A stretch of 64,000 bases of DNA from NCBI GenBank assembly GCA_022824225.1, contig JAJEAH010000028.1:65766-129765 (forward strand), in the 5' to 3' direction. This DNA is from Chloroflexota bacterium (GTDB lineage Bacteria > Chloroflexota > UBA11872 > VXOZ01). The notes under the pieces are model-generated. The model was not told where the DNA came from. It ran no database searches and worked only from the letters and a program-made list of their open reading frames with translations. The position numbers and the translations under genes were made by a program. This document shows, in pieces, positions 12,165 to 52,317 of the stretch (its first letter is position 1; each line of letters starts with the position of its first letter).

Positions 12165-12348
12165 CCGTTCTGAAGTCTGTGTGTAGGCACAGCGAACTCC
12201 CGAAAGAGTGCTCTTTAACGTTCTTTGCGGTTGTAGGTGTTGACGCTGCGCTCTCGTCGGCGTAGGGTGAGAGCAAAGAGCAACTGCGCGTTTCGAGTTC
12301 CGGTGATTGGATCGGCGGGGCCGCGCGCGGGAAGTTTCAAGGGAAACG

Positions 12349-13556
12349 CCATGCAACGTGTACTGAAAACTCTCAGCCTCTTGGCATTTGCTGTCCTCGT
12401 ATTCGCCCCGCTCACGCCGGCACTCGGCGTCCAGGCCGCGAGCAGACTTGCGCGCGGAGCGGTCATTTCCCTTGAGGATACGCCCCACCTCTGGTTTGCC
12501 GACGAAGCGGGAGTCCTGCATTGGGGCGGCGATACCCGCGCGCTTGCCGGCCGCTACATCAATTGGAATTTGTACGCAGTGGTGAGCCTCGCGGAACTCC
12601 AGGCCTTTGAGATTGGCGATCCCTGGCTTACTGCCGGACTCATCAAGGAGGGCGACCCGATCTACCTCGTCAAGTGGGAGACGGACTGGGCCGAGCCAAA
12701 GCTCCTGCACATTCAGTCCTGGAGCGATGCTGAGATCTTTGGCCTGAGCGGCAGCAACTATGGGAATTTCGTTTACGATATCCCAACGTGGGAGGCCGAA
12801 TACGGGCTTGCGGTCAGCGGACTTACGCGCTCGCCATTGGCGCCGGCCACACCGCCTGTTGATTCCACGCCACACTCAGTGCCGGGAACGCCGCTTAGTC
12901 TGGAGGCAGTGCTGCAACGCTTGGCTTCACTGACGACCGACGACGATGATGACGACGACGATGGCGACGCAACCGACACGGCAACCGCCACCGCCACGGC
13001 TACGGCAACCGGGAGCCAGACCGCCACCGCAACCGCGACGGCGACTGACGACGGTACATCTTTGACGGTGACCGCAACGGACGATACGGCGGACTATCAG
13101 AATGTGCTCACGGCTACTGCCACCGACACGGCGACGGCGACCGGCGATCAAACGGCGACAGCCACGGCCACGGCCACTGACGACGGTACATCCGTGACGG
13201 TGACCGAAACGGACGATACACCGCAGCAGCCGCAGCCACGGAATGAGCTCACGCCAACGGCTACCGACACGGCAACGGCCACGGCCACGAACGGACTGAC
13301 GGCGACGGCCACGGCCACGGCGACTGACGACGGCACCTCCGTGACCGTGACTGAAACGGACGACACGCCGGAGAATCTGGTAACGACAACGGCGACCGAT
13401 ACGGCAACCGCTACGGCCACGGGGGATCAAACGGCGACGGCCACGGCCACGGCGACCGACGACGGCACGTCCGTGACGATCACCGCGACCGATCCTACCG
13501 ACGATACCCTAACCGCTACCGACACAGACGTGAGCGGGAGTACCGATAGCGGCTAG
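12349..13556 (+). CDS. Secreted protein with a C-terminal Thr/Ala-rich tandem-repeat region
   Basis: Signal peptide MQRVLKTLSLLAFAVLVFAPLTPALGVQAAS, an ~190-aa globular region, a poly-Asp stretch, then four ~45-aa repeats (TATATATATDDGTSVTVTETDDTP...). Start chosen at the signal-peptide ATG within the longer ORF. Confidence 0.6.
12940..13540 (+). repeat. Coding tandem repeat, about 4 x ~130 nt, encoding (TA)n-DDGTSVTVTETDDTP units
   Basis: Direct nucleotide and amino-acid periodicity is visible in the sequence (gacgacggtacatc...gtgaccg... units recur). Confidence 0.8.
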
Positions 13557-15091: not shown

Positions 15092-15889
15092 TCAACCCTC
15101 GCGATGGTCTACGCGAGGTCCGTACGGCAAGTCGCGCAGGTCGTCCACTACCTCGACGATTGCCTTGCTCACCGTTTCGAGAATGCGCTCGCCTTTCCAG
15201 GCTGCGCCGAGTGTGGGGTCGCCGCCCGTGCCGTCTCGCGACATCTTGCTCAGGTGGTCCACGAACTTTACCGGCGAGCCGCCCATGAGGTCCCGGTAGT
15301 GCCACTTGGTGCGAATCCGATAGTCAGCCCGCGCTTTATCGAGCTTGACCCGCGCCGGATCGAGCGCCATATAGATCGAGGTTTCAAACTCGCCGGCGTG
15401 GTCCATGCCGCCGGGATACTCGGATTCACGCCACTGTTTCACCTCGTCCTGCGCCAAGTCCCAGTACGAAACAAGCGCACAGGCGGCGTCCGCGTGCAGT
15501 GTGGCCAGCCGCGCCGACACTTGCAGCAGCGGGTCATTGGAAGCGTGTCCGTTGACGAAGAGGATTACGGGAAAGCCGTGGTGCGCAAAGCTCACGGCAA
15601 CGTCGTAGCAGTAGTCAATGAAGTGCTGCGCTCGCACGGAGATTGTGCCGGGAAAGTCCATGTTGTGCTCGTTGAAGCCGTAGTGAATCGGCGGCGCGCA
15701 GAGGATTCTGTCTGGCGCAGCCTTCGCCGCCCGCTCGCAGACGGCCAATGCCGCCACGTTGTCCGTGTCGATGGGCAGGTGCGGGCCGTGCTGCTCGATG
15801 GCCGCCACCGGCAGCAGGATAGCCTTCATGTTCTGCGCAGCGTGGCGCACTTCAGGCCAGGTCAGCTTGGCGTAGCGCCATTCCGCCAT
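15092..15889 (-). CDS. Creatininase-family amidohydrolase
   Basis: MAEWRYAKLTWPEVRHAAQNMKAILLPVAAIEQHGPHLPIDTDN... matches the creatinine amidohydrolase family N-terminus and metal-ligand pattern. Confidence 0.85.
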   Translation of the reverse strand: MAEWRYAKLTWPEVRHAAQNMKAILLPVAAIEQHGPHLPIDTDNVAALAVCERAAKAAPDRILCAPPIHYGFNEHNMDFPGTISVRAQHFIDYCYDVAVSFAHHGFPVILFVNGHASNDPLLQVSARLATLHADAACALVSYWDLAQDEVKQWRESEYPGGMDHAGEFETSIYMALDPARVKLDKARADYRIRTKWHYRDLMGGSPVKFVDHLSKMSRDGTGGDPTLGAAWKGERILETVSKAIVEVVDDLRDLPYGPRVDHREG

Positions 15890-16034
15890 TGACTTGCCCC
15901 CAATTGCTCCTTGCGACGCTCTGTTCGGTCTCAGTATAGATGAGTTGTGACTGCCCAGCTTGCAGGTAGAAATAGAGAAAGGTACAGTCTAGGTGGGCGT
16001 GTTACACGTTTCACAAAGGTTAAGGAGCACACGA

Positions 16035-17398
16035 TGAAGGAAAAAATTCTGCGGCGGACCTTCCTCGGCGGCGCTGGCGCCACCGCGGCGGGCGCGCTGT
16101 TCGTAGCTTGCGGCCAGGCCGCCCCCATGGAAACGGCTGAGGCGCCGGCAGAGGAAGAAGCGCCGCAAGAAGAGGAAGCACAACCGGCCGCGGCGGAAGC
16201 CGTCGAGCTGGAAGTGTGGACGACCGCGCGCTGGGACCTTTCAACGGGCTTGGGCTTGGAGGTCAAGCAGGAAATCGAGGCCCTGGTAGAGGGCCTCACC
16301 GTCAAGGACCAGATTCCTGAAGGCAACCGCTTCACCATCCTGATCGCGGCGCAAGCGGCCGGCACCTCGCCTGACATCGGCCAGGTGGGCGTGTGGCAGA
16401 ACCAGCAGGTGGCGGCCGGCGGCATCGTCGACAGCCTGGAGCAGTACTACGCCCAATCGCCGGTCATCAATAAGGATGACATCTGGCCGTCGCTGCGCAT
16501 CGACATGGACCACAAGGGCCAGGTGTGGAGCATGCCCTTTGGCCCGGACGTGCGCTTCTTCTACATCCACGACAATCTCTACCTGGACGCGGGCCTCGAT
16601 CCGGAGACCCCGCCGGAAACGTGGACGGACCTGGAGGACGTGATTTCCAAGTCATTCAAGGGCGGCAATACCATCGAGCAGGTGGCCTGGGGCCCGTTGT
16701 GGGCCAACCGCCACGTCTGGATGGTGCCCATGTGGCAGCTTGGCGGCGAGAACATCAATGAAGACCGCACCAAGATCACGCTCAATACCGAGGAAGGCCG
16801 CGAGGGCATGGCGTGGCTGAAGAAGGTGCACGACATGCAGGGCGGCTACGACGCGTTGCAGCAGTTCAAGGGCGACGAGAACGCCCGTGCCCACTTCTAT
16901 GCCAGCCGGTTGGCGAACCTCTATGACACCGGCTCGATCCGGTTTGAGAGCATCGCCCAGGAAGCGCCGGACCTCGAGTATCACTGGGGTCACTGGCCCA
17001 AGCCCGCCGACGGCTTCAACCGCACCTACGGCGGTTGCCACACGTGGGTGATGCCCGTGGGCGCCACGCATAAAGCTGAGGCGTGGACGTTCATGGAGCA
17101 CTTTGGCGTTGATGACGTCAACATCCGCTGGGCCAAGCACTTCGACCGCCTCCCCATTCGCGTGGACACGTCGTACAGTGAGGCGTACCACGGCGGCGAT
17201 CCGTTCGTTATCCACCAAGTTGACGTAATGGAAGGCCGGCGCTTTGTGGTCTCGGCCCCCGGCGCCAACGAGATGCTCGGCATCATGAGCGGCGGCGTGC
17301 CGGATATGCTCACCGGCAAGACCACCATCGAGGAAGGCTTGCGGCTCACCGAGGCGCAGGCGCAGACCGTGCTCGACGAGTGGCTGGCGCGTGAGTAA
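16035..17398 (+). CDS. ABC transporter substrate-binding protein (family 1, carbohydrate/oligosaccharide type), lipoprotein
   Basis: Start at the ATG preceded by AAGGAG. Tat-like/lipoprotein leader MKEKILRRTFLGGAGATAAGALFVACGQ, an Ala/Glu/Pro linker, then a family-1 solute-binding-protein fold. Confidence 0.85.
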
Positions 17399-17595
17399 GG
17401 CAGTACGCTAAGCGGTCTCGCGCAGGCGTTGCGGCGCAGGCGCGTCCGCTCTGACGGTAGCAAGGGAGCATCCAGTACTTCGCCGTGCGGTGGGAGTGCT
17501 GGGTGCTCCGTGATTCTTTTATACGGCATGTGGAAAGAGCCGCTAGCCGGGCGCGATCAAGTCAGCACACACGAGATGTGGTGAGGAGTGAAGCC

Positions 17596-19146
17596 ATGAG
17601 CGCTATGGAATTCGACCGTAACTTGATCCGGCTGCCGCTGGACTACAAGGGCACGCCGGAACTGGCGGAGATCCGCGTGACTGTGCCCAGCATCGTGCCG
17701 CCGGACGTTCAGGGCGGAGAGTTCAAAATCGGCCTGGAGTTGCGCGACCAATGGGGCTTTCACCTGCCTAAGCAGAGCGCCCGCCTGGAACTCTCTATGG
17801 AAGGGGCGACCGGCGAAGTACCCGCAGAAGTGCCCATGCTGCCGGAGTATGACAGCCACTACGCCGTACAAGGCCGCGTCACCGAAAAGGACCGGGTCTT
17901 TCGCGTCCGGGCGCGCGACCGCGAGACCGGCATAGAGGCGCTTAGCAATCCCGCCTGGGCGCCCGGTTTCATGTACCGGGGCGATCACAAGCTCTATTGG
18001 GGCGACCTGCACTGTCACCGCTTGGAAAACCCCAGCCGCAAGCGCACAGATCCGCTCCTGTGGAGCTATGGGCCCGCTACCGTGGATGAGGTCTATCGCT
18101 TCGCCCGCGACGTGGTGAACTTGGACTTCACGGCGCTCACCGACCACGATTACGCCCTGAGCACCGACGAGTGGCGCGAGATGCAAGAGGGCGCGGAGTT
18201 CTATAACCAGCCTGAACGGTTTGTAACACTGCTTGGCTACGAGTGGTCGTGGAATCGCGGGCCGGACGCCGACTGCGGCCACCGCAACGTGATCTTCCGC
18301 CACGGCGACATGCCGCTCATTTCCAGCAATTGGAAGGGGTCCAACACGCCCCAAGACCTCTTCAACATCTTTCGCCGCCTTTCCCGCACGGGTAGGGACA
18401 TTCTCTCGATTCCCCATCACCCGGCGCGCCTGGGGAACCGCATTTGGCACAACTGGGAATCCATGGACCCGGAGTTCGAGCGCCTCATGGAGGTCTATAG
18501 TCACTGGGGCAGCAGCGAGCACGAGGGCGAGCCCTACCCGCTCAAGAGCAGAAACGAGAGCACGCAGTGGGACCACCCCCAAGCGGAGTATCCGCCCTAT
18601 GAGGCCACGGGGCACTTTCTGCAGGACGGGCTGCGCCAGGGCTTTCGCTTTGGGTTCGTGGGCGGCAGCGAAAGCCACGACGGCCGCGCTACGAGCAGCG
18701 TGCAGATTGCCCACCTGCCCATAAAGGTGACAACGTTCAACCACCATGCCGGCATGACGGGTGTGTGGGCCCGCCGCCGCGAGCGCGACACGGTCTTCAG
18801 TTCGCTCTGGCAACGCCGCGCCATCGGCACCACCGGCCAGCGCATCTTGCTCGATTTCGACGTGGACAACCAGCCCATGGGCGAAATTATCAGTGTGCAG
18901 ACGCCGCCCAAGCAGATGCGCGTGCGCGTCCATGGCACGGCGCCGCTTGCAAGAGTGGTGGTGGTCAAGAACAATCAGGACTGGCACGTGGTGGAGACGC
19001 CGGGCTGGGAGTGCGCCTTTACGTTGGATGAGATCGAGATGCCCCAAGACCGCGCCGACTGGTACTACGTGCGTGTAACGCAGGAAGACGGCGAAATGGC
19101 GTGGTCGAGTCCGATCTGGATCGAAGACGCGCGGAGAGTCTTTTAG
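17596..19146 (+). CDS. PHP-like / DUF3604-family putative metal-dependent hydrolase, paralog 1 (intact HxH motif)
   Basis: Motifs YWGDLHCH, TDHDY, GYEWSW, IPHHP, GGSESHDG, AIGTTGQRI. The C-terminal beta-rich domain ends in WSSPIWIE. Start chosen at an internal ATG after GGTGAGGAGTGAAGCC. Confidence 0.65.
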   Translation: MSAMEFDRNLIRLPLDYKGTPELAEIRVTVPSIVPPDVQGGEFKIGLELRDQWGFHLPKQSARLELSMEGATGEVPAEVPMLPEYDSHYAVQGRVTEKDRVFRVRARDRETGIEALSNPAWAPGFMYRGDHKLYWGDLHCHRLENPSRKRTDPLLWSYGPATVDEVYRFARDVVNLDFTALTDHDYALSTDEWREMQEGAEFYNQPERFVTLLGYEWSWNRGPDADCGHRNVIFRHGDMPLISSNWKGSNTPQDLFNIFRRLSRTGRDILSIPHHPARLGNRIWHNWESMDPEFERLMEVYSHWGSSEHEGEPYPLKSRNESTQWDHPQAEYPPYEATGHFLQDGLRQGFRFGFVGGSESHDGRATSSVQIAHLPIKVTTFNHHAGMTGVWARRRERDTVFSSLWQRRAIGTTGQRILLDFDVDNQPMGEIISVQTPPKQMRVRVHGTAPLARVVVVKNNQDWHVVETPGWECAFTLDEIEMPQDRADWYYVRVTQEDGEMAWSSPIWIEDARRVF

Positions 19147-19269
19147 TCCATTGACGCGGCGGAGTGCGCGCGCCCCGCGACTGCCAGCGGCGTGGCAACT
19201 CAATTCGTCACTCCTGTGGCAACCCAGTCGCCATTCCCTTAGCAACTGAGTCCGTCATTCCCGTGAAAA

Positions 19270-19430
19270 CGGGAATCCATCCTCTCCGTGTTTAGCGTGC
19301 CTGTGTGCTCTCTAGCATGGAGACGCAATCCTGCGTAGGGGCGGTTCGCGAACTGCCCCTACGCGGAATTTGCGATGGCAGGCATGGTTGCGCGTGGGAA
19401 CATTGGGGCGCGAACCGCCCCTACAGCGCG
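19270..19430. repeat. REP-like palindromic elements: the hairpin gtcattcccgtgaaaacgggaatc, and a 16-bp inverted repeat gtaggggcggttcgcg...cgcgaaccgcccctac
   Basis: Exact reverse-complement pairs. The same two hairpin families recur at 24775-24845, 26468-26492 and 30640-30690. Confidence 0.75.
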
Positions 19431-19533
19431 CAATGGACAAAAGCGCCCTGCCGCACGCTGTGATACGATACCGCAGGGCATAGTGCCAAATGCCTGGCAG
19501 TTCAAGCGGTGAAACGAAAGGTGGCGGCAAACT

Positions 19534-21348
19534 ATGGCTGCGAGCGCCAACGGACGATTTGAGGTCATTGCTGAGGGGCCGTTGCGGGTCGGGGAGACGG
19601 TGGCGTTGCAACTTCACTACACGCCGCCAAGCGGCGGACTGCACACCGGCGGCAACCTGTGGATCTTCTACGATATTCGTCAATTCGGCGACCGCAGGCA
19701 CGCGTTTGAGGCCTCAGGCGGCATCATCGTCAATGGTCCAGCGGGGACAGTCTGGGAGTCCGAGGCGCTCGTCAACGGCGGCACGGTGCGGACGTTCGAC
19801 GTTCACTCTCCGGCGCCTGAATTCCTCCACGCCGTGCACGTGAAGCTCGCAAAGGGCTCAGTGGCGGAAAACCAGAGTGTCGAGGTGCAATTACGCACTG
19901 TGGCCGAGGGCTTTCTGCTGCCGGTCAACGCCATCGACGCCTTTCGTTTCTGGCTGGTGGAAGACCCGCGGGGCGAACTCACGCTCTACCATCCCGACCG
20001 CGACAAGTACCACTACTTCCTGCCGCGCGAGGCGGAACTTTCAATACTGGAGAGCAACCCGCTCACCATCAGCGCCGCCGAGCCGGCCGCGCTGCAGGTG
20101 ACGACGCCGTCCTATTCATCGGGGCAGGCGCTGACACGGGTGGTCGTCACCGATAGATACGGCAATCCCGTTCGTGATGCGGCAGGGGCGGTCACCCTGC
20201 GTACCGGCAGCGGCGAGACAACTGCTGCGCTCAACTCATTCAGCACGGAAGACACAGTACCGGTGCAGGGCCCTGCCGATCGTGTAACGGCGGCGTATGG
20301 GGACATCGAGGCCGTGAGCAATCCGGTGCGGGTCGATGCGGATACGTCCCCGTATACCCTGTATTGGGGCGACCCCCACGGCATGCTCTTCAACCAGCGC
20401 CCCATTGTCGAGCACTTCGCCTGGGGCAAGGATGTGAACGACCTGGATTTTGCGGGCGGCCAGCTCTTCTCGTATAGCATTTGCATCGAGGAAATTTGGG
20501 ACGAACTGCAGGACGCGTGGCGGCAGTATGACTTGCCGGGCGAGTTCGTCGCGTTGCCGTCGGCGGAGTTCGCCACCGGGCCCGACGGCAGTCACCGTCA
20601 CGGCTTCTTCCCCAAGCCGGAGGGCGAGCCGCCGGTCTTCTGTGAAGACCGTCCCGCCGCCAACGATCCCAAGCTCCACGCGCGGTATCACCCCGACACC
20701 GTCTATTGCAACGACTATCAAGAATTCTACCGGGAGATGAAACGCCGGGGCGCGCTCATTCACGGCCACTTTCATACGCATTTCTACGTGCAGGAACACC
20801 TGGCTGAGATCTATCAGAAGCAGCAAACCGACGGGTTCACTGAGGAAGAGAAGATCAACCAGTTCTTGATGCGGGGCGTGAAGCTCGGCATCGTCAGCGG
20901 CAGCGATACCCACGACAACCGCCCCGCCAATCCCTACAAGGAACCGGGGCCGTCAGGGCCGGCGGGACTGACCGCCGTGTGGGCCGAACGGCTCGACCGG
21001 CCCACGCTCTTCGATGCGCTCTTCAACCGGCGCTGCTACGCCACCACCGGCGTGCGCATCATCGTGGACTTTCGTGTGAACGGCGCGTGGGTGGGATCAA
21101 CGGTGCAGGCCGATAGTTTCGCGTTCACGGCGGACGTGGTCGGCACGGCGGACATCGAGCAAATTGACCTGGTGGTGAACGGCGACACAGCCAGAAGTTA
21201 CACACCTGATCAACAGCACGTGCAATTGGAAGATGAGGTGCCGCTGCGGTTCTCTCCGGTCAGCGCCAATTACTGCTACCTCCGCGTGCGGCAGAGAGAC
21301 GGCAATCGCGCGTGGACGAGTCCAATCTGGCTGGAGCCTATGGCGTAG
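19534..21348 (+). CDS. PHP-like / DUF3604-family protein, paralog 2 (HxH degenerated to H-G-M; longer N-terminal beta domain)
   Basis: Shares YWGDPHGM, HGHFHTHFY, GIVSGSDTHDN, ATTGVRI, WTSPIWLE with paralog 1. About 75% identical to paralog 3. Confidence 0.65.
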   Translation: MAASANGRFEVIAEGPLRVGETVALQLHYTPPSGGLHTGGNLWIFYDIRQFGDRRHAFEASGGIIVNGPAGTVWESEALVNGGTVRTFDVHSPAPEFLHAVHVKLAKGSVAENQSVEVQLRTVAEGFLLPVNAIDAFRFWLVEDPRGELTLYHPDRDKYHYFLPREAELSILESNPLTISAAEPAALQVTTPSYSSGQALTRVVVTDRYGNPVRDAAGAVTLRTGSGETTAALNSFSTEDTVPVQGPADRVTAAYGDIEAVSNPVRVDADTSPYTLYWGDPHGMLFNQRPIVEHFAWGKDVNDLDFAGGQLFSYSICIEEIWDELQDAWRQYDLPGEFVALPSAEFATGPDGSHRHGFFPKPEGEPPVFCEDRPAANDPKLHARYHPDTVYCNDYQEFYREMKRRGALIHGHFHTHFYVQEHLAEIYQKQQTDGFTEEEKINQFLMRGVKLGIVSGSDTHDNRPANPYKEPGPSGPAGLTAVWAERLDRPTLFDALFNRRCYATTGVRIIVDFRVNGAWVGSTVQADSFAFTADVVGTADIEQIDLVVNGDTARSYTPDQQHVQLEDEVPLRFSPVSANYCYLRVRQRDGNRAWTSPIWLEPMA

Positions 21349-21486
21349 TCGAGTCCAATTGAGCTGAGGACACCTGCCGTGTTTTCCCGTGCGCGGACTG
21401 CCAAGAGGCATATTGTGCTCCGAGTCCTAAGTACAGTGGGACTGTATACTGGTCGCGTCTAGCTGTAGAGCCGAGGAGCATTGGCC

Positions 21487-23304
21487 ATGTCCGCGGAAGT
21501 CAATGGGCGTTTCTGGGTCAGTGTAGAAGGCCCGTTGCGCGTTGCTGAAACGGTCACGTTGGAGTTGCACTACATGCCCCCGGCAGGCGGCCTGCAGACG
21601 GGGGGAAATCTCTGGTTCTGCTTCGACATTCGCCAGCTTGACGAGTGGGTGCTCGACTTTGACCGGCCGGACGCCATTGCCGTGCAAGGTCCGGCGGAGA
21701 CGGTCTGGGAAGCCGAGGCGCTCATCGATGGCGGCGTGGTGCGGACGTTCGATATCCATGCGCCCGTGCCGGAATTTCTGCACGTGGTGCACGTGAAGTG
21801 CGTGGCCGGCGCAGTGACGGCGGCGGAGCGAGTTACGGTGCAACTGCGCACGGCTCCCGGCGGCTTCCTGCTTCCCCGCAACGCCATCGATGCTTTCCGT
21901 TTCTGGCTGGTCGAGGACCCGTCTGGCGAGCTTACTTTCTACCACCCGGAACGGGACAAGCACCACTACTTTCTGCCGCGTGACGCGGAACTCTCCTTGC
22001 TGGAGAGCAATCCGCTCGCAATCAAAGAGGCCGAACCGGCGGCGCTGCAGGTAACCTCGCCGTCTCACGCCGCGGGGCACGCGGCCACACGCGTCGTCGT
22101 CACCGATCGGTTTGGCAATCCCGTGCGCGCTGCCCAGGGCGAGGTGACGCTGCGTTCCGGCAATGGCGAGACAACGGTTGCGCTCAGTTCGTTTAGCGCC
22201 GCAGGGACCGTACCCATGCGGGGGCCCGTAGACCGCGTCACGGCGTCGTACCGGGGCGTCGAAGCCGAAAGCAACCCGGTGCGGGTGGATGAAGAATTGC
22301 CTTGCCTGTCGCTCTATTGGGGCGACCTCCACGGCATGCTCTTCAGCCAACGGCCCATCGAGGATCACTTCGCCTGGGGCAAGGACGTGAACGGTCTTGA
22401 CTTTGCCGGCGGCCAGTTGTTTTCCTACAGCATTTCCATTGCGGAAACGTGGGAGAAACTCCAGAACGCGTGGCAGCGCTATGACTTGCCCGGGGAGTTC
22501 ATTGCGCTGCCCTCGGCGGAGTTCGGCACCACCCCCGACGGCAGTCACCGTCATGCGTTCTTTCCGGAGATTGCGGGACAGCCGCCGGTCTTTTGCGAAG
22601 ATCGACCCGCGGCGCACGATCCCAAATTGCAGGCGCGCTTTCATCCCGATACGGTCTTCTGCAAAGACTACCAGGAGTTCTACCGCGAAATGAAGCGCCG
22701 GGGCGCCCTGATGCACGGTCATTTCCATACGCACTTCTACGTCCAAGAACACCTGGCGGAGATCTTTCAGAAGCAGAGAACGGACGGTGAGGTGGAAGAG
22801 GAGAAGATCAACCAGTACCTGATGCAGGGCGCGAGGCTTGGCTTCGTGAGCGGGAGCGACACCCACGACAGCCGTCCTGCCAATCCCTACCGCGAACCGG
22901 GGCCGCTGACCGGTGTGGCGGGACTTACCGGCGTGTGGGCGGAACGGCTGGACAAACCATCCCTCTTCGACGCGCTCTTCAACCGGCGCTGCTACGCGAC
23001 AAGCGGCGTGCGCATGATCGTCGACTTTCGCGTGAACGACGATTGGATGGGTTCCACGGTGCAAGGCGAACGATTCACGTTTACGGCGGACGTGGTCGGC
23101 ACGGCGGAGATCGAGCGCATCGACCTGGTAGTGAACGGCGATACGGCCCGAAGCTATGCGCCCAGGCAACAACACGCGCATGTGGAAGATGAGGTGCCGC
23201 TGCGGTTTTCGCCCAAGAACGTCCACTATTGCTACCTGCGCGTGCGGCAAGTAGACGGCAATCGCGCGTGGACGAGCCCAGTCTGGTTGGAGCCACATTC
23301 ATAG
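21487..23304 (+). CDS. PHP-like / DUF3604-family protein, paralog 3 (recent tandem duplicate of paralog 2)
   Basis: MSAEVNGRFWV... aligns with paralog 2 (MAASANGRFEV...). A GAGGAG ribosome-binding site lies 8 nt upstream of this ATG. Motifs YWGDLHGM, HGHFHTHFY, GFVSGSDTHDS. Confidence 0.65.
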   Translation: MSAEVNGRFWVSVEGPLRVAETVTLELHYMPPAGGLQTGGNLWFCFDIRQLDEWVLDFDRPDAIAVQGPAETVWEAEALIDGGVVRTFDIHAPVPEFLHVVHVKCVAGAVTAAERVTVQLRTAPGGFLLPRNAIDAFRFWLVEDPSGELTFYHPERDKHHYFLPRDAELSLLESNPLAIKEAEPAALQVTSPSHAAGHAATRVVVTDRFGNPVRAAQGEVTLRSGNGETTVALSSFSAAGTVPMRGPVDRVTASYRGVEAESNPVRVDEELPCLSLYWGDLHGMLFSQRPIEDHFAWGKDVNGLDFAGGQLFSYSISIAETWEKLQNAWQRYDLPGEFIALPSAEFGTTPDGSHRHAFFPEIAGQPPVFCEDRPAAHDPKLQARFHPDTVFCKDYQEFYREMKRRGALMHGHFHTHFYVQEHLAEIFQKQRTDGEVEEEKINQYLMQGARLGFVSGSDTHDSRPANPYREPGPLTGVAGLTGVWAERLDKPSLFDALFNRRCYATSGVRMIVDFRVNDDWMGSTVQGERFTFTADVVGTAEIERIDLVVNGDTARSYAPRQQHAHVEDEVPLRFSPKNVHYCYLRVRQVDGNRAWTSPVWLEPHS

Positions 23305-23574: not shown

Positions 23575-24684
23575 ATGGCTGACTTTGCACGCATAACACA
23601 GTCCATGGCAGAGCAGCGACTGGATGCCCTGGTTACGCTCGGCATGCGGAACTGCGCCTATCTGGCCGGCGCCATCAGCGAGGGGCCGTGGCTCAACGAG
23701 CCGCAGGGGCTCGCGCCCTGGATGACGTGTCTCATTCCGCCGGACCGGTCATTCACGTTTGGCGGCGGGTTACGAGACACGGACATGCCGGCAGACGGGA
23801 TTTCTCCCGATCATACCCGCGCGGCGCGGCTGACGGCGCTGGCAGCGGAGATGCGGCAGCGAGGCGTCGGCAAGGCGCGTGTCGGGGTTGACATGGATTT
23901 TGCCTCGGCGAGCGATCTGCGGAGGCTTGAAGAACTCTTGCCGGATGCTACGTTCGTTTTCGCCGACCTGCTGCTCGCACAAGCACGGGCGTGCAAGACG
24001 CCGCAAGAGCTACAGTGGCTCCGCAAGGCAATAGCCGCCTCCGAGTCTGGGTATCGAGAGATGCTGCGCGAGGTGCGCGTGGGCATTTCCTTTCAAGAGC
24101 TTGTGACCGTATGGGCAAAGGCGGTGCTGGACAACGGGGCCTTGCCCATCAATACTTCACCGGTCTCGTGGATGCTGCCCCACGGCGGCACGAGCCTGCG
24201 CGATCAGCCCGACGCAGTCGTGATTCGCAGTCCCGGCGTTGTGGAAGCGGGGTTGGTGTACCGCGTCGATCTCGCCGCGATCTCCGCCGGTTTCTTTTCC
24301 GATCAGAAGTTTAATTTCTGCGTGGGCGCGCCGCGCAAAGAGAGCTTGGCCGTCTGGCAGGCGCACCGGGAGCGGCAGCTTTTCATGGAAGACTTCGTGC
24401 GTCCGGGCAAGACGAAACGCGAGGTCTTCGAGGCCTGCCAGCGCGAGTTCAAAGACACTGATAAATATGCCTGGTGGATCCACGGCGTGGGCATGGACAA
24501 GCACGAGGAACCGCTGATCGGCAGTCTGCTGCCGTCCGCCGTTGACGTGCGGCCGGAGATCACCTTTGCGGTGAACAACGTGGTCTCGCTAGAGTCCTCG
24601 TGGCTCGAGGAGGACATGTACGTATTGAAGGAGGATGGACTCGAGCGGTTGGGGACAATTCCGCAGGAAGTGGCTATTGTGTGA
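23575..24684 (+). CDS. M24-family metallopeptidase (creatinase / Xaa-Pro peptidase-like; creatinase N-terminal domain plus pita-bread domain)
   Basis: The N-terminal region resembles the creatinase/prolidase N domain. The C-terminal region carries candidate metal ligands (VDLAAIS...SDQ, HGVGMDKHE, LESSWLEE). Confidence 0.7.
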   Translation: MADFARITQSMAEQRLDALVTLGMRNCAYLAGAISEGPWLNEPQGLAPWMTCLIPPDRSFTFGGGLRDTDMPADGISPDHTRAARLTALAAEMRQRGVGKARVGVDMDFASASDLRRLEELLPDATFVFADLLLAQARACKTPQELQWLRKAIAASESGYREMLREVRVGISFQELVTVWAKAVLDNGALPINTSPVSWMLPHGGTSLRDQPDAVVIRSPGVVEAGLVYRVDLAAISAGFFSDQKFNFCVGAPRKESLAVWQAHRERQLFMEDFVRPGKTKREVFEACQREFKDTDKYAWWIHGVGMDKHEEPLIGSLLPSAVDVRPEITFAVNNVVSLESSWLEEDMYVLKEDGLERLGTIPQEVAIV

Positions 24685-24699: not shown

Positions 24700-24950
24700 T
24701 CCGGTGCAGGCCGGATTCACCATGCCTCGCTAGACCACATACGAGAGATGAACATGGCGGCTAGCTTCCCAACTGTCACTCCGGCGAAAGCCGGAGTCTA
24801 GGGCGCACGGCGAAGATGGATTCCGGCTTTCGCCGGAATGACAGACTGGCTGCGGTTTATTCTTAGGTCGATCATCATGGTCTTGACGGTCACGCACGAG
24901 AATGTTTGCAGCGGACGCAAGTTGCAAACCTGCGCTACCGGAGCGAAACT
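24700..24950. repeat. Left copy of a ~200-bp repeat flanking the S8-like gene (gtcactccggcgaaagccggagtc ... ttgcaaacctgcgctaccggag)
   Basis: The same two motifs occur in the same order at 26467-26594. The second motif also occurs at 44575-44600. Confidence 0.7.
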
Positions 24951-25071: not shown

Positions 25072-26415
25072 ATGGCAATTACCGAGCAGAAAGAGACCGG
25101 CGTACTGCCGGAGGGCGTGCGGGAGCCGTATGACTGGGCGCTTGATCAGATGCGGGTACGGGAGGCCCATGCCGTTACGCAGGGCAGCCCTGACGTGATT
25201 GTGGCCGTGATCGATCTCGGGTATCGGTTTCACCCCGACCATGAGGGTCACCTGTGGGTAAACCCGCGGCCCACGCGGGGCGACGTGCACGGTTGGGACT
25301 TTGCCGAGGAAGACGCCACGCTCGAGTACGAAGGGTCGCGCGACGATACGGTGTACCATCGCGGGCACCACGCCTTCGTCGTCGGGGAAGTAGCGGCTAC
25401 GGCGCCCAAGTGTCCGATAATGATCCTGCGTGTGGGGTACGAGCCGCACCACCAGAAGAGTTGGCCGCGCGCCGTGCGCTATGCGGTTGACCACGGGGCC
25501 AAGGTGCTCGTGATGCCCCACGGGTACATCACGTTAGACCATACCGATGGCGTGCCCTCATTCTACAAAGGCACCGACTTCAACTATCCCTACGACAATA
25601 TCGGCCTTATCGAGGCGCTGGATTACGCCTATCAATCGGGCTGTTTAGTCATCAAGGGCACGGCGGACAACCGCGGGCGGCGGGTGGCGACCGTGAATGC
25701 CGGTTTGGATAGCGTCTTTGCCGTCGGCTCAACGAACAAACACGGCGTGGCGGCGAACATCGCGGCGTCGGCTGACTATGTGGAGGCGGCTACGCCCGGC
25801 GGGGAACGCAACACGGATGACCCGACCGAATCCATCTGGGGAACCGGCGGCGACCACGACTACATACCTTTCGAGGGCGGTTGCATGGCGTCGGCCTTTG
25901 GCGGCGGCGTGGCGGCACTGGCGTTTTCGCAATATCCGCACCTATCCAATGGCGAAATTCGCCAGATACTGCGCAATACGTCCCAGGGCAGCGGCTGGGA
26001 TCCCCTGCTCGGGCACGGCATCTTCGATGCGTACCGGGCGGTGTCGCTTGCGCCCCAGGAGCTCTCGGCAGGACTGCGCGTCGATAGCACGGCGTCGCAG
26101 GTACGCCGGGAGGACGGAAAACTTGTGGCCGACATCGTTGTAGAAAACACAGGCGTCTTCGATGTATCTCGCATGCTAACGGTTGCGTTCAACGGCGATC
26201 CGAAATCGGCGGCCGACTCAAGCGCTACCCGCGAGCAAGCGAACATTCTCATCCGGCGTCAGATTGGCCACTGCATTGCCTCTGTGCCCGGTTTGGAGCG
26301 GGTGACCGTTTCGCTTGCGCTGGAGGACGAGTCAGAGCCGGATGAGGTCTGGGTGCAGGTCAATGCCCTGGAAGTGGGCAAAGCGGGGGTCTACGACACG
26401 GCGCGGATACGCTAA
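25072..26415 (+). CDS. Subtilase (S8) family homolog without signal peptide; the catalytic Ser position appears occupied by Cys
   Basis: Asp box VAVIDLG, His box HRGHHAFVVGEVAA, and a Ser-box-like GGCMASAFGGGVAALAF that aligns to GTSMAAPHVAGVAAL. No N-terminal signal sequence. Confidence 0.6.
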   Translation: MAITEQKETGVLPEGVREPYDWALDQMRVREAHAVTQGSPDVIVAVIDLGYRFHPDHEGHLWVNPRPTRGDVHGWDFAEEDATLEYEGSRDDTVYHRGHHAFVVGEVAATAPKCPIMILRVGYEPHHQKSWPRAVRYAVDHGAKVLVMPHGYITLDHTDGVPSFYKGTDFNYPYDNIGLIEALDYAYQSGCLVIKGTADNRGRRVATVNAGLDSVFAVGSTNKHGVAANIAASADYVEAATPGGERNTDDPTESIWGTGGDHDYIPFEGGCMASAFGGGVAALAFSQYPHLSNGEIRQILRNTSQGSGWDPLLGHGIFDAYRAVSLAPQELSAGLRVDSTASQVRREDGKLVADIVVENTGVFDVSRMLTVAFNGDPKSAADSSATREQANILIRRQIGHCIASVPGLERVTVSLALEDESEPDEVWVQVNALEVGKAGVYDTARIR

Positions 26416-26962: not shown

Positions 26963-27982
26963 ATGCGCGTTACATCCGTAGACATCGTGCCGTGGAAAGA
27001 TGACGCTACGTTCGTCTATTCGGTGGTATTTGACGAAGGCACCATCGACTGTTTGGCGAATGCGTTTCCCATCGCGCAGCAGTACGAGATTCTGGGCGAC
27101 GTGGCGGTGGTTGCCGGACAACTGGGTGAGAAGCGCCACGTCGAGCGCAGTTCGCTGAACGACTACTTCCACATGGGCCCGGAGCACCTTAAGTTTCTCC
27201 TGTCCCAGGGCTGGAGCGTGAGCAATCACAGCTATTCGCACCCGCCGCTGCGCGACCCCAGTAGTATTGACTACGAACAAGAGATCGTGGAGTCCTACCA
27301 CGTGCTGGAGCGCGCCCTCGGGCAGCCGGTACCGGTCTTCTCCTCGTGGAACAGCTTTGAGGTGTATGACACCGTGCGCGCGTGGGTGGAGCGCACGCCG
27401 GGCTACCTTGCACTCACGCGCGCCTCGAACGACGCCGAACACATTAACGGCCCCGACTTTGATCCCTTCAGCATCTGGCGCAACCGTCTCTGCGAAGACG
27501 ATGAAATCGAGTATCTGCTGCCCTGGCTCTCGCGCCGTGGGTTCGAGCCGGAACGCGTGCAGGGAAAGTGGCTGGTCGACGTCACGCACCTGGTCATGTA
27601 CAAGACGCCGCAGGGGCATAAGTGCATCTCGCCCTATGCGCTGGAGGGACGCTTCGATCAGATGCGCACGCTCTTTGGCGATAGCATGTGGGCAGCAAAC
27701 CCCGATGACGTGGTGCGCTACGCCTACCTGCGCAGGCACTGTACGCCTATTGTCGAGCAGCCTTCGCAAGCGCGGGCGACGATCTCTGTGGAGTTCTCTC
27801 GGTTGCCGCCGCAGACTGCGGAGGGACAGTTGACGTTTGTGCTTGCCTTTGCCGATGACCCCGGTACGGTGGAGGTAAGAGGGCCGGATGGGGCGGTGCA
27901 GACCACGCCCGCCGGCGAACGACGGCTGCGCTTTACGTGCCGGGTGAATCCCGGAGCGGAGCTAGAGGTTACTGCCCGCTAG
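26963..27982 (+). CDS. Polysaccharide deacetylase (NodB-homology / CE4-like) family protein
   Basis: NodB-like motifs (FDEGTIDC...HSYSHPPL). Preferred over the overlapping antisense ORF 26942-27769. Confidence 0.7.
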   Translation: MRVTSVDIVPWKDDATFVYSVVFDEGTIDCLANAFPIAQQYEILGDVAVVAGQLGEKRHVERSSLNDYFHMGPEHLKFLLSQGWSVSNHSYSHPPLRDPSSIDYEQEIVESYHVLERALGQPVPVFSSWNSFEVYDTVRAWVERTPGYLALTRASNDAEHINGPDFDPFSIWRNRLCEDDEIEYLLPWLSRRGFEPERVQGKWLVDVTHLVMYKTPQGHKCISPYALEGRFDQMRTLFGDSMWAANPDDVVRYAYLRRHCTPIVEQPSQARATISVEFSRLPPQTAEGQLTFVLAFADDPGTVEVRGPDGAVQTTPAGERRLRFTCRVNPGAELEVTAR

Positions 27983-30419: not shown

Positions 30420-30700
30420 AGCCTCTCGTGCCATGAGGCGGTGACAAGCCCCGCGCTACGGCAAGCAAGTGGCTGACACGTAAGACAGTAGCACAGGTTT
30501 GGAACCTGTGCCCACCGGACCGCAGGGGACAGCGGAGGCAAGGGCGGTCATGGAGAAAACGTCTTGTGCCCGGAGGCGGGGGACAAGCCCCCGCGCTACG
30601 GCAACCAGAAGGGGTCTTTCCGATGAGTGGTTGCGTATGGCCGGTAGGGGCGCTTCGCGAAGCGCCCCTACTTCGCGAAGCGCCCCTACATCTACAATAG
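30420..30700. repeat. Intergenic repeat cluster: two ~60-nt direct repeats ending gacaagcccc(c)gcgctacggcaa, plus a duplicated perfect palindrome aggggcgcttcgcgaagcgcccct
   Basis: atggagaaac...gacaagccccgcgctacggcaa at about 30395-30460 recurs at about 30540-30600. The palindrome occurs twice at 30640-30690. Confidence 0.75.
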
Positions 30701-33084: not shown

Positions 33085-33484
33085 CGCTGCGCCGCTCCTA
33101 GCTGGTTGGCGGAACACTGACGGGGGCAACGGGGCCCACGCTCCCTCACCATAGCACACGCCATGCGCACAAGAGTTAGAGCGCCGGGAGAAGCGCGGTC
33201 ACTCTCTTACGCGGTCGCGAGGCCTGTTAGCGCACGGCCGCAGCCCGGCGCCTATGGGGCATTGTATGGCGCGTGCAATGAGGTGGCAATTCGATTTGTT
33301 CCTCCGGGCTGCCTGCGCTATCATCTCTGTAACGTTCGGGCAAGTCCGCGGCGCTATCGGCGTCTAGGGCTTGGCAGCCGATGGTTGGTAGCGGCCTGAA
33401 GCCGTCTATTGTAAATGAAAGACTACGAGCGCCCTCGCCGGATTGCGGCAGGCGTGTAAGAGGTACGGGAACGGAGGCGAGAGC

Positions 33485-34246
33485 ATGTTTGGTTGGCGCG
33501 GTCGCATCGGTCTACTCGTGCCGTCGGTGAACACGGTGGTGGAGCCCGAAGGATGTGCGTTACTGCCGGAAGGGTTTTCCGTTTTCGCCACGCGCATGCG
33601 CAATTCCCGCTCGGATGCGGACGACATGGCGCAAATGTGCCAACACGTCGATCGCGGCGTGGATGAACTCCTCAGCGCCCAGGTGGACGTCATCGCCTTT
33701 GCTTGCACGGCGGGCAGTTTCTTTCAGGGAGCAGGGGGTGAAGAGTCACTGCGCGCGCGGCTGCGGGGCGGCAGCCAGGTGCGCACTGTAACCACGGCCG
33801 GCGCCGTGGCCGGCGCTTTGCGCGCGCTGGGCGCGCAGCGTGTTGCCATGGTGACGCCCTACATACCGGAGCTGAATGCGCTGGAGGTCGCGTTTCTCCA
33901 GGACTGGGGATTCGACGTGGTGAGCCAGGCGGGCATGGGCATTCTGACTGCCTTTGACATAGGTGTCGTGCCGTTGGCGGAAACCTACCGCTTTGCGCGC
34001 GACCACGTTGCCGCAACCTTGGCCCAGTCACCGGACGTGGATGCGCTTTTCATCAGTTGCACGAACCTGCGCACGCTGGACGTCATCCAGGCGCTGGAAG
34101 AAGACCTCGGCATCCCGGTTGTGACCAGCAATCAAGCCACGTACTGGCAAAGCCTGCGCACGCTGGGGCATTCTGCCCCCATTCCCGGCTACGGGCGGTT
34201 GTTCGAACTGTCTCCTGTCGCGGCGCCGCTGCCTGTGACGGTCTAG
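33485..34246 (+). CDS. Asp/Glu/hydantoin racemase-superfamily enzyme (hydantoin racemase / maleate isomerase / arylmalonate decarboxylase-like), with two conserved Cys
   Basis: MFGWRGRIGLLVPSVNTVVEPE...IAFACTAGSF...LFISCTNLRT. GGAGG ribosome-binding site before this ATG. Confidence 0.7.
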   Translation: MFGWRGRIGLLVPSVNTVVEPEGCALLPEGFSVFATRMRNSRSDADDMAQMCQHVDRGVDELLSAQVDVIAFACTAGSFFQGAGGEESLRARLRGGSQVRTVTTAGAVAGALRALGAQRVAMVTPYIPELNALEVAFLQDWGFDVVSQAGMGILTAFDIGVVPLAETYRFARDHVAATLAQSPDVDALFISCTNLRTLDVIQALEEDLGIPVVTSNQATYWQSLRTLGHSAPIPGYGRLFELSPVAAPLPVTV

Positions 34247-34249
34247 GCA

Positions 34250-50698: not shown

Positions 50699-50701
50699 AT
50701 A

Positions 50702-51490: not shown

Positions 51491-51501
51491 GCTGATTTGG
51501 C

Positions 51502-52314: not shown

Positions 52315-52317
52315 CCT

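What the first reader, a model, noticed from the sequence alone, without database searches (positions are those of the whole stretch)
16035..23304. Solute-binding-protein gene followed by three tandem PHP/DUF3604-like metallohydrolase paralogs, two of which have lost the second His of the HxH motif
Three consecutive + strand genes (17596-19146, 19534-21348, 21487-23304) share PHP-like phosphoesterase motifs (GSESHDG/GSDTHDN, ATTG(Q/V)RI, C-terminal W(S/T)SPIW(I/L)E) and an N-terminal beta-rich domain. Paralog 1 keeps the canonical metal-binding YWGDLHCH. Paralogs 2 and 3 have YWGDPHGM and YWGDLHGM (His to Met) and a longer N-terminal domain, and they are recent duplicates of each other (conserved at the nucleotide level).

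The cluster sits behind a family-1 substrate-binding-protein lipoprotein gene with no cognate permease or ATPase. REP-like hairpins separate paralog 1 from paralog 2. A creatininase-family gene is divergent upstream, and a creatinase-like M24 peptidase is downstream.

The arrangement suggests an uncharacterised extracytoplasmic or catabolic hydrolase system in which the degenerate copies may be regulatory or binding subunits.
Basis: partly seen in the sequence, partly recalled or inferred. Interest (0 to 1): 0.6.

Follow-up and report, generated by a model that had tools for sequence, protein, structure and literature searches.

The report
Three PHP-fold hydrolase paralogs, two subfamilies
Three neighbouring genes in an uncultured Chloroflexota genome encode metal-dependent hydrolase-like proteins of unknown function, and the two that look "broken" belong to an old, strictly conserved subfamily with a redesigned metal site, so they are probably working enzymes rather than dead copies.

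Summary
A Tat-lipoprotein solute-binding gene is followed by three DUF3604 (PHP-fold) genes. Paralog 1 has HxH; paralogs 2 and 3 have H-G-M.

The "degenerate copy" reading is not supported:
- H-G-M is invariant in 87/87 full-length members of a discrete subfamily found in at least eight phyla, down to 30% identity.
- On the nine-residue PHP ligand scheme this subfamily keeps six positions, all invariant. It replaces positions 2 and 4 with invariant Met and Phe-Ser-Tyr.
- It also has its own N-terminal beta-sandwich domain with invariant Arg/Gln/Arg/Glu.
- Both window copies are under purifying selection (dN/dS 0.07-0.18). The duplication (dS about 0.94) predates the divergence of at least eight related MAGs.

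None of the three has a signal peptide, so they are cytoplasmic.

HGM-type genes usually occur without a paralog-1-type gene. Paralog-1-type genes had an HGM-type gene nearby in all three lineages where enough flank was visible, twice behind ABC-importer genes.

Most likely these are active enzymes of two subfamilies in a catabolic island, the HGM type with two metals instead of three. The reaction is unknown. A Cys-for-Ser subtilase-like gene downstream is a notable side finding.

The parts
15092..15889 (-). Creatininase-family amidohydrolase gene, divergent from the SBP gene
   Evidence: Pfam PF02633 at 2.1e-64. It falls below the NCBIfam equivalog cutoffs for creatininase (115.9 bits against 235) and MftE (124.4 against 172). 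It is syntenic in L003-L016.
16034..17398 (+). Orphan family-1 solute-binding lipoprotein with a Tat-type signal and lipobox
   Evidence: SBP_bac_8 at 5e-16 and SBP_bac_1 at 1e-11. The N-terminus reads RRTFL...FVAC. There is no permease or ATPase in the window. The same arrangement occurs in 14 related MAG loci.
17596..19146 (+). Paralog 1: canonical (HxH) DUF3604 PHP-fold metallohydrolase, 516 aa, cytoplasmic
19327..19424 (.). REP-like palindromic repeats in the 387-nt spacer between paralogs 1 and 2
   Evidence: Inverted repeats I6 and I13. The motif has 6 matches against 1.3 expected, with a second site at 30644-30689. The fold is -61.8 kcal/mol with z = -5.1. The spacer length varies among related MAGs.
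19534..21348 (+). Paralog 2: HGM-type DUF3604, 604 aa. It has an N-terminal 'DIRQ' beta-sandwich, an Ig-like domain, a PHP barrel with a remodelled metal site, and a C-terminal beta-sandwich.
21487..23304 (+). Paralog 3: second HGM-type DUF3604, 605 aa, an old tandem duplicate of paralog 2
   Evidence: It is 73.5% identical to paralog 2, with dN 0.167 and dS 0.94. Its own orthologs (85-88% identity) are present in L003-L010, with dN/dS 0.11-0.14.
23575..24684 (+). M24 / Creatinase_N-family metallohydrolase gene
   Evidence: Peptidase_M24 at 2e-14 and Creatinase_N at 2e-8. A 53%-identical copy lies beside an S8-Cys gene in L024.
25072..26415 (+). Subtilase-like (S8) gene with Cys in place of the catalytic Ser. 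It recurs near HGM-type genes in other phyla.
   Evidence: Peptidase_S8 at 2.5e-15. In the thermitase alignment GTSMA aligns to GGCMA. Asp, His and Asn are kept in the orthologs. GGCM is present in 120/120 homologs. It lies within 10 kb of HGM genes in L024, L030, L034, L037-L040 and L045.
26963..27982 (+). Polysaccharide-deacetylase-family gene, the conserved partner of the S8-Cys gene
   Evidence: Polysacc_deac_1 at 1e-9. It is adjacent to S8-Cys genes in L049, L050 and L052.

Best explanation
The three genes encode cytoplasmic PHP-fold metalloenzymes of the DUF3604 / CehA-McbA-related superfamily. They belong to two old, distinct subfamilies.

**Paralog 1 (canonical type).** It has the HxH motif and the rest of the three-metal PHP ligand set.

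**Paralogs 2 and 3 ('HGM type').**
- The first metal site keeps three of its four ligands, with Met in place of the second His.
- The second metal site is intact.
- The third metal site is dismantled. Ligand position 4 becomes Phe within an invariant Phe-Ser-Tyr, and the loop after the first strand becomes Phe-Asn-Gln-Arg.
- They carry an extra N-terminal beta-sandwich domain with invariant Arg49, Gln50, Arg86 and Glu96.

**Inference.** The HGM type is a catalytically competent two-metal enzyme with a redesigned substrate pocket. It is not a dead binding subunit. The two window copies are an old, maintained duplication, probably with diverged specificity.

**Probable role.** The trio works in the cytoplasm on a solute, or its breakdown products, captured by the lipoprotein SBP. 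It is part of a large catabolic island rich in C-N and ester hydrolases and in sugar or amino-sugar enzymes.

**Most likely chemistry (low confidence).** Hydrolysis of an ester or amide/carbamate-type bond on an anionic, amino-sugar-like intermediate.

**Shown:** fold, family, ligand map, conservation, selection, localisation signals, gene neighbourhoods. **Inferred:** metal number, catalytic competence, substrate class.
For: **Fold and family**
- PF12228 hits all three genes.
- The AF2 models have pLDDT 93.6 and 94.3.

**Ligand map**
- Profile-profile alignment has probability 100% and E = 2.9e-71. It maps H139 to H282, H141 to M284, D183-H184-D185 to L311-F312-S313, E216 to E345, H229 to H354, H274 to H412, and E359-x-H361 to D458-x-H460.
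- The canonical profile aligns its HxH and DH motifs to the solved PHP proteins 3e0f and 3e38.
- The nine-residue, three-metal PHP scheme is taken from PMC3666897.

**Conservation and selection**
- In 87/87 full-length HGM proteins the following are invariant: H282, G283, M284, F286, R289, F312, Y314, E345, H354, R355, R373, C392, H412, H414, T415, E425, Q428, K429, D458, H460, D461, Q50, R86 and E96.
- The subfamily is discrete. Bit scores drop from 255 or more for HGM-type hits to 139 or less for HxH-type hits. It forms about a dozen of roughly 8,900 clusters at 50% identity.
- dN/dS is 0.07-0.18 for both window copies.

**Distribution and precedent**
- HGM-type genes occur without a canonical partner in most of 31 distant loci across at least eight phyla.
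- A two-metal PHP-fold enzyme can be active. PsfC is described as a dinuclear non-heme iron enzyme (bioRxiv 10.64898/2026.01.15.699783).
- Some HGM proteins carry Tat signals, which fits export in a folded, cofactor-loaded state.

**Context**
- GFO/IDH/MocA, DegT, URO-D, DAO, sulfatase, S8-Cys and deacetylase genes recur around HGM genes.
- Paralog-1-type genes lie behind ABC-importer genes in L053 and L054.
- They have an HGM-type gene nearby in L048, L032 and L054/L055.
Against: - No biochemical data exist for any DUF3604 member apart from the distant CehA/McbA carbamate hydrolases. In CehA both histidines of HxH were reported as important (PMC8292978), and the HGM type lacks the second.
- Metal stoichiometry is inferred from sequence only. 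Model coordinates could not be inspected, so the position of Met284 and of the N-terminal domain relative to the pocket is unknown.
- Ligand position 3 could not be mapped with confidence in either subfamily.
- The neighbourhoods are heterogeneous, and the recurring families (GFO/IDH/MocA, sulfatases) are very abundant in these phyla. No background frequency was computed.
- Four S8-Cys loci chosen from other phyla had no DUF3604 within 8 kb.
- Strict conservation is also compatible with a conserved non-catalytic ligand-binding role.
Confidence: 0.6

Rival explanations
1. Paralogs 2 and 3 are catalytically dead PHP domains that serve as regulatory, scaffolding or substrate-binding subunits of the active paralog 1. 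The precedent is the variant PHP domain of E. coli DNA polymerase III alpha.
For: - Two or three of the nine PHP ligand positions are lost.
- There is a precedent for inactive but structurally conserved PHP domains (PMC3666897).
- Paralog-1-type genes had an HGM-type gene on the same strand in all three independent lineages where enough upstream sequence was visible: the Chloroflexota clade, L048, and L032/L054/L055.
Against: - HGM-type genes occur without any paralog-1-type gene within 10 kb in most distant loci, so they cannot be dedicated subunits of it.
- E. coli Pol III alpha lost five of nine ligands, mostly to Arg. Here six are kept and all are invariant in 87/87 sequences.
- In L054 four genes separate the two types.
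- The two copies are kept separately under purifying selection.
Confidence: 0.12
2. The HGM type is not a hydrolase. It uses a remodelled dinuclear or mononuclear centre, possibly iron or copper with Met284 as a ligand or second-sphere residue, for oxidative or other non-hydrolytic chemistry. The analogue is the PHP-fold enzyme PsfC.
For: - PsfC is described as a dinuclear non-heme iron enzyme that converts 2-phosphonomethylmalate to 3-oxo-4-phosphonobutanoate.
- The third metal site is lost.
- Met284 and Cys392 are invariant.
- Oxidoreductase genes (GFO/IDH/MocA, DAO) are often directly adjacent.
- Some members carry Tat signals.
Against: - No residue-level comparison with PsfC was possible.
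- Most characterised PHP enzymes are hydrolases.
- Neighbouring oxidoreductase genes are common in these genomes anyway.
Confidence: 0.15
3. The gene order is incidental. The three paralogs, the SBP and the flanking hydrolase genes are unrelated functions that happen to sit together in a gene-dense catabolic island, and the paralogs act on different, unrelated substrates.
For: - REP-like elements and a 387-nt spacer separate paralog 1 from paralog 2.
- Spacer lengths vary between related MAGs, and some have only one HGM copy (L012, L013, L016).
- HGM neighbourhoods differ widely between phyla.
- The SBP has no transporter partner in the window.
Against: - The order creatininase / SBP / paralog 1 / HGM / M24 / S8-Cys / deacetylase is kept in 14 related MAG loci.
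- Paralog-1-type and HGM-type genes co-occur in three unrelated lineages.
- The S8-Cys and deacetylase genes recur near HGM genes in six phyla.
Confidence: 0.13

Closest known systems
Pfam DUF3604 (PF12228) and the NCBIfam CehA/McbA family metallohydrolase domain (NF038032). The characterised members are the carbaryl/carbofuran hydrolases CehA and McbA.
   Same: All three proteins pass the PF12228 gathering score. They share the PHP-like barrel plus a C-terminal beta-sandwich ending in W-S/T-S-P-I-W. Paralog 1 has the HxH motif, whose two histidines (H313 and H315) are reported as important in CehA (PMC8292978).
   Different: - All three fall below the NF038032 cutoff of 80 bits (72.9, 64.0, 62.3).
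- Paralogs 2 and 3 match only about 40-50 residues of the Pfam model.
- They lack the second His of HxH and the DH motif.
- They carry a subfamily-specific N-terminal domain.
- CehA and McbA are xenobiotic-degrading enzymes on mobile elements. These genes sit in a chromosomal catabolic island.
Structural-genomics PHP proteins 3e38 (two-domain PHP-like phosphoesterase) and 2anu (TM0559)
   Different: Sequence identity is only 14-16%. Their function is also unknown. They have no N-terminal beta-sandwich domains. They keep HxH, whereas the HGM type does not.
PsfC (PDB 7rty), a PHP-fold dinuclear non-heme iron enzyme of fosfomycin biosynthesis
   Different: PsfC is 244 residues with a single domain and sits in a phosphonate biosynthetic cluster. 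No phosphonate genes are seen here. The similarity is no greater for the HGM type than for the canonical paralog.
Variant (metal-free) PHP domain of E. coli DNA polymerase III alpha
   Same: It is a PHP domain that lost metal ligands yet stays structurally conserved. This is the precedent for the 'degenerate binding module' idea (PMC3666897).
   Different: Pol III alpha lost five of nine ligands, often to Arg, and is a domain inside a larger enzyme. The HGM type keeps six invariant ligands, is a free-standing protein, and its replacement residues are Met and Phe.

Membership tests
PHP (polymerase and histidinol phosphatase) superfamily | Distorted (beta/alpha)7 PHP barrel fold | tested here: met
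PHP superfamily, metal-binding type | Nine conserved ligands (H, H, D/H, H, E, H, C/H, D/N, H) for three metals (PMC3666897): paralog 1 | tested here: met
   Positions 1, 2 and 4-9 are present as H139, H141, H184, E216, H229, H274, E359 and H361. Position 3 could not be placed with confidence.
PHP superfamily, metal-binding type | Nine conserved ligands for three metals: paralogs 2 and 3 | tested here: not met
   Position 2 is Met284. Position 4 is Phe312. Position 3 is probably lost (the loop reads F-N-Q-R-P). Positions 1 and 5-9 are kept and invariant.
Pfam DUF3604 (PF12228) | Score above the gathering threshold of 20.4 bits | tested here: met
   77.8, 45.9 and 43.0 bits. For paralogs 2 and 3 the match covers only profile positions of about 375-428 out of 591.
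NCBIfam CehA/McbA family metallohydrolase (NF038032) | Score above the curated cutoff of 80 bits | tested here: not met
   72.9, 64.0 and 62.3 bits.
CehA/McbA carbamate hydrolases | Carbamate-ester hydrolase activity that depends on the HxH histidines | not testable with these tools
   The activity needs an assay. At the sequence level, paralog 1 has HxH and paralogs 2 and 3 have HxM. The requirement for the histidines comes from PMC8292978.
Binding-protein-dependent ABC importer | SBP together with cognate BPD_transp_1 permeases and an ATPase | tested here: not met
   The SBP is present. No BPD_transp_1 gene or cognate ATPase is in the 64-kb window. Partners may be encoded elsewhere in the genome.
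Creatininase (TIGR04448 equivalog) | Score above the equivalog cutoff of 235 bits | tested here: not met
   115.9 bits. The protein is a member of the Pfam Creatininase family only.
Subtilase family S8 (neighbouring gene at 25072-26415) | Asp-His-Ser catalytic triad | tested here: not met
   Asp, His and the oxyanion Asn are present, but the nucleophile is Cys (GGCM) in this protein and in 120/120 homologs. The Pfam S8 threshold itself is met.

The most novel reading that the evidence does not exclude
The HGM-type proteins are a distinct, ancient class of PHP-fold enzyme. Their remodelled His/Met-containing two-metal centre and dedicated N-terminal domain carry out a reaction not yet known for this fold, such as oxidative or sulfo-/phospho-ester chemistry. 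They do so on an unidentified amino-sugar-like compound. In this reading they work together with a natural Cys-nucleophile subtilase, a deacetylase, a GFO/IDH/MocA dehydrogenase and a DegT aminotransferase, in an undescribed catabolic pathway shared by many uncultured phyla.
Probability: 0.15. Interest if true: 0.7.

Novelty: new variant of a known kind. Interest (0 to 1): 0.4.

Why it matters
DUF3604 is a large superfamily, with about 8,900 clusters at 50% identity, and it has almost no biochemistry. Recognising a discrete subfamily with a strictly conserved, redesigned metal site gives a concrete target for enzymology:
- The signature is H-G-M, F-S-Y, H-F-H-T, Q-K-Q and the N-terminal DIRQ domain.
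- It also warns annotators against calling such proteins 'degenerate'.

The co-occurrence data give testable hypotheses about a catabolic pathway that is widespread in uncultured Chloroflexota, Latescibacterota, Gemmatimonadota, Verrucomicrobiota and others. This covers paralog-1-type with HGM-type genes, and HGM-type with the S8-Cys / deacetylase / GFO / DegT module.

No long-standing question is resolved, and the function remains unknown.

Tried and rejected
- **PDB by sequence.** Single-sequence and profile searches with paralog 2 found nothing. Paralog 1 alone gave only chance hits. Only the canonical profile reached 3e0f and 3e38.
- **Literature on DUF3604.** One irrelevant paper.
- **Riboswitch or RNA motif search over 15.0-28.5 kb.** Nothing above chance. 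The miRNA-family hits at 24764-24855 come from a long hairpin.
- **Promoter and terminator scans.** No more sites than in shuffled sequence.
- **AFDB fold search.** The library was not available.
- **Apparent 'second DUF3604' genes upstream of the HGM genes in L035 and L044.** These were clustering artefacts and were rejected after alignment.
- **Homology between the window's SBP and the lipoprotein upstream of the permeases in L054.** None was detectable, so that arrangement is analogous and not orthologous.
- **S8-Cys as an obligate partner of the HGM type.** Rejected, because 0 of 4 S8-Cys loci from other phyla had a DUF3604 within 8 kb.
- **A creatinine pathway as the cluster's function.** Considered because of the creatininase-family gene, the Creatinase_N/M24 gene, the hydantoinase genes and the DAO genes elsewhere. 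It is not supported at equivalog level, and nothing links the DUF3604 proteins to it.
- **A sponge or coral symbiont origin.** I suspected this from relatives' isolate names, but I could not verify it and do not claim it.


Full report
**1. What is in the sequence**

The ORF list confirms the following genes:

| Coordinates | Strand | Gene |
|---|---|---|
| 15092-15889 | - | divergent upstream gene |
| 16034-17398 | + | SBP (longest ORF starts at 15947) |
| 17596-19146 | + | paralog 1, 516 aa |
| 19534-21348 | + | paralog 2, 604 aa |
| 21487-23304 | + | paralog 3, 605 aa |
| 23575-24684 | + | M24-family gene |
| 25072-26415 | + | S8-like gene |
| 26963-27982 | + | deacetylase-family gene |

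Pfam identifies them as Creatininase (2e-64), SBP_bac_8/SBP_bac_1, DUF3604 three times (77.8, 45.9 and 43.0 bits against a threshold of 20.4), Peptidase_M24 with Creatinase_N, Peptidase_S8 and Polysacc_deac_1.

NCBIfam gives the CehA/McbA metallohydrolase domain for all three paralogs, each below the curated cutoff of 80 bits. The creatininase-family protein is well below the creatininase and MftE equivalog cutoffs.

Paralogs 2 and 3 are 73.5% identical to each other, and paralog 1 is about 31% identical to each.

The SBP starts MKEKILRRTFLGGAGATAAGALFVAC, a twin-arginine motif followed by a lipobox. The three paralogs have no hydrophobic N-terminus in any possible start, so only the SBP is exported.

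No BPD_transp_1 permease or cognate ATPase is in the window. The one ABC system, at 48.8-53.1 kb, is ABC-2 type, and a second orphan SBP gene lies at 59098-60504.

The 387-nt spacer between paralogs 1 and 2 carries palindromic repeats. The core motif has 6 matches in the window against 1.3 expected, with a second site at 30644-30689. The element folds at -61.8 kcal/mol with z = -5.1.

The exact proteins are on record from a 170,455-nt contig. Cluster members are named as Chloroflexota MAG proteins ('DUF3604 domain-containing protein', 'S8 family serine peptidase').

**2. H-G-M marks a subfamily and is not decay**

A search with paralog 2 returned 117 proteins.
- The first 102 all have WG[DE]xHGM. 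Their E-values are 3.5e-70 or better and identity goes down to 30%.
- Classical HxH appears only among the remaining hits, at E = 5e-35 or weaker.

An exhaustive profile search of 1.84 billion representatives found 8,908 DUF3604-like clusters.
- HGM-type proteins occupy only about the first dozen, then HxH takes over.
- Other replacements of the second His (HxQ, HxK, HxR) occur elsewhere in the superfamily.

A genome scan found HGM-type genes in MAGs of Chloroflexota, Latescibacterota, Gemmatimonadota, Bryobacterales, Opitutales, Spirochaetales, Pirellulaceae, Clostridiaceae and others.

**3. Fold and metal-ligand map**

Profile-profile alignment of the HGM family (A2) and the canonical family (A3) has probability 100% and E = 2.9e-71. 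The canonical profile aligns its HxH and DH motifs to the solved PHP proteins 3e0f and 3e38. PMC3666897 gives the PHP scheme of nine ligands (H, H, D/H, H, E, H, C/H, D/N, H) for three metals. On that scheme:

| PHP position | Paralog 1 | Paralog 2 |
|---|---|---|
| 1 | H139 | H282 |
| 2 | H141 | **M284** |
| 3 | uncertain | probably lost (loop F-N-Q-R-P) |
| 4 | H184 | **F312** |
| 5 | E216 | E345 |
| 6 | H229 | H354 |
| 7 | H274 | H412 |
| 8 | E359 | D458 |
| 9 | H361 | H460 |

From my own knowledge of YcdX and histidinol-phosphate phosphatase structures (not tested here), positions 1, 2, 5 and 8 form one site, positions 5, 6 and 7 a second, and positions 3, 4 and 9 a third. On that basis the HGM type should keep two metal sites and lose the third.

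In 87 full-length HGM proteins, all six retained ligands are 87/87 invariant. So are M284, F286, R289, F312, Y314, R355, R373, C392, H414, T415, E425, Q428, K429 and D461, and the N-terminal-domain residues Q50, R86 and E96. R49 is 86/87. That pattern is a redesigned site and not a decaying one.

The first ~165 residues of the HGM type form the 'DIRQ' beta-sandwich. Paralog 1 lacks it, but it is present even in the shorter (~520 aa) HGM forms.

**4. Selection and age of the duplication**

- Between paralogs 2 and 3, dN = 0.167 and dS = 0.94.
- Each copy has its own orthologs in L003-L010, at 83-88% identity with dN/dS of 0.07-0.14.
- L011 also carries two copies. L012, L013 and L016 carry one.

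Both copies are therefore maintained by purifying selection, and the duplication is not recent.

**5. Genomic context**

The order creatininase / SBP / paralog 1 / HGM (one or two copies) / M24 / S8 / deacetylase is syntenic in 14 related Chloroflexota MAG loci.

In 31 more distant HGM loci, the SBP and creatininase genes are absent. A paralog-1-type gene was found in only one of them (L032). The neighbours that recur are:

| Neighbour family | Loci (of the 33 clustered) |
|---|---|
| GFO/IDH/MocA oxidoreductase | 20 |
| DAO-family flavoenzyme | 10 |
| AAT/C45 | 9 |
| S8-like gene | 8 |
| Sulfatase | 7 |
| DegT aminotransferase | 7 |
| URO-D-like | 6 |

- The GFO/IDH/MocA gene is sometimes separated from the HGM gene by only 38-160 nt.
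- The AAT/C45 loci all come from Chloroflexota MAGs.
- The S8-like loci are spread over about six phyla.
- The sulfatase loci include an overlapping sulfatase-HGM-sulfatase arrangement in Latescibacterota and Gemmatimonadota.

The window itself holds MR_MLE, hydantoinase A/B, DegT (two), DHDPS, GFO/IDH/MocA (two), a xylose-isomerase-like TIM barrel and a fucosidase further downstream.

Reverse tests:
- Four S8-Cys loci from other phyla had no DUF3604 within 8 kb. They did have GFO/IDH/MocA and Polysacc_deac_1 directly adjacent. The HGM gene is therefore a frequent but optional companion of that module.
- Paralog-1-type orthologs (48-59% identity) had an HGM-type gene on the same strand in L048, L032 and L054/L055.
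- In L054/L055 the order is HGM, CN_hydrolase, lipoprotein, two BPD_transp_1 permeases, paralog-1 type, DUF202, DegT.
- In L053 two permease genes directly precede the paralog-1-type gene.
- The contigs of L053, L056 and L057 are too short upstream to judge HGM presence.
- The L054 lipoprotein has no detectable similarity to the window's SBP.

**6. Interpretation**

The evidence favours three cytoplasmic enzymes of two subfamilies. Paralog 1 is a canonical three-metal DUF3604 tied to solute uptake. Paralogs 2 and 3 are a two-metal variant with its own pocket and N-terminal domain.

PsfC shows that a dinuclear PHP-fold enzyme can be active and even non-hydrolytic. CehA and McbA show that this branch of the fold can hydrolyse carbamate esters rather than phosphoesters.

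The many invariant Arg and Lys residues, together with the sugar, amino-sugar, sulfatase and amidase context, suggest an anionic amino-sugar-like substrate. This step is inference only.

The 'dead regulatory subunit' model is weakened by three things: the independence of HGM genes from canonical partners, the invariance of the retained ligands, and purifying selection on both copies. It keeps some weight because paralog-1-type genes seem always to come with an HGM-type gene.

**7. Novelty and score**

The proteins are already annotated as DUF3604. What is new is the delineation of a discrete HGM subfamily, its ligand map, and its context. That makes it a new variant of a known kind, of moderate interest (0.4). 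The function is still unknown.

Noticed in passing
window 25072-26415 (+); also L030, L034, L037-L040, L045, L049-L052: The subtilase-like protein keeps the catalytic Asp, His and oxyanion Asn but has Cys where the nucleophilic Ser should be. GGCM is present in 120/120 homologs, none of the 12 N-termini inspected has a signal peptide, and there is a C-terminal extra domain. Its tight gene partners across phyla are a GFO/IDH/MocA oxidoreductase and a Polysacc_deac_1 protein, often with DegT and URO-D-like genes. This looks like a natural 'thiol-subtilase' family in an undescribed module.
   Followed up: partly
window 19327-19424 and 30644-30689: REP-like palindromic element with core GTAGGGGCGGTTCGCG, in two intergenic sites. 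There are 6 motif matches against 1.3 expected, and the first site folds with z = -5.1.
   Followed up: yes
window 24764-24855: A long perfect-ish hairpin between the M24 and S8 genes. It gives spurious miRNA-family hits on both strands, and its sequence differs from the REP-like element.
   Followed up: no
window 12237-13556 (+): ORF encoding a protein with an N-terminal hydrophobic segment and many tandem Thr/Ala-rich repeats (…TATATATATGDQTATATATATDDGTSVTVTETDD…).
   Followed up: no
window 1-1968 (-) and 2614-5820 (-): Two large multi-pass membrane ORFs that share an identical 40-residue N-terminus (MLSITVDPAIVPNLARVFAVLACIGLSGFLLVYFAFGLRS). The region also has unusually high AT skew (0.27-0.28).
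   Followed up: no
window 33443-38058 (+): An Amdase / Asp-Glu-racemase-family gene followed by hydantoinase/oxoprolinase A and B genes. Together with the creatininase-family and Creatinase_N genes, this hints at cyclic-amide or guanidino-compound catabolism in the island.
   Followed up: no
window 49841-53103 (+): Four tandem ABC2_membrane_6 permease genes that look like two duplicated pairs (MQRYVRLYLAFAKNS… and MQRYARLYLAFAKNS…), behind one ATPase gene.
   Followed up: no
window 42731-43765 and 44949-45983 (+): Two GFO/IDH/MocA paralogs with nearly identical N-termini, about 1.2 kb apart, followed by a xylose-isomerase-like TIM-barrel gene.
   Followed up: no
L035 9860-11563 and L044 9848-11044 (Bryobacterales): The HGM-type proteins here carry an N-terminal twin-arginine signal (SRREFLRTTTAGAVAL…). 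Some members of the subfamily are therefore exported folded, unlike the window's copies.
   Followed up: no
L002, L017, L018, L025 (Gemmatimonadota / Latescibacterota): The HGM-type gene sits between two sulfatase genes. In L002 the upstream sulfatase gene overlaps it by about 35 nt, and the downstream one follows after about 50-80 nt, which suggests one operon.
   Followed up: partly
L039 1993-3573 (-) (Spirochaetales): A third kind of DUF3604 variant near an HGM gene. It has YFGCAHTQFH in place of the HxH motif and GDNASG in place of GSxSHD, so it is a different pattern of ligand loss.
   Followed up: no
L054/L055 1043-2782: A 579-aa CN_hydrolase with two matched stretches, encoded between the HGM-type gene and the ABC-importer genes in Clostridia-type contigs. 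CN_hydrolase genes also occur in L048.
   Followed up: no
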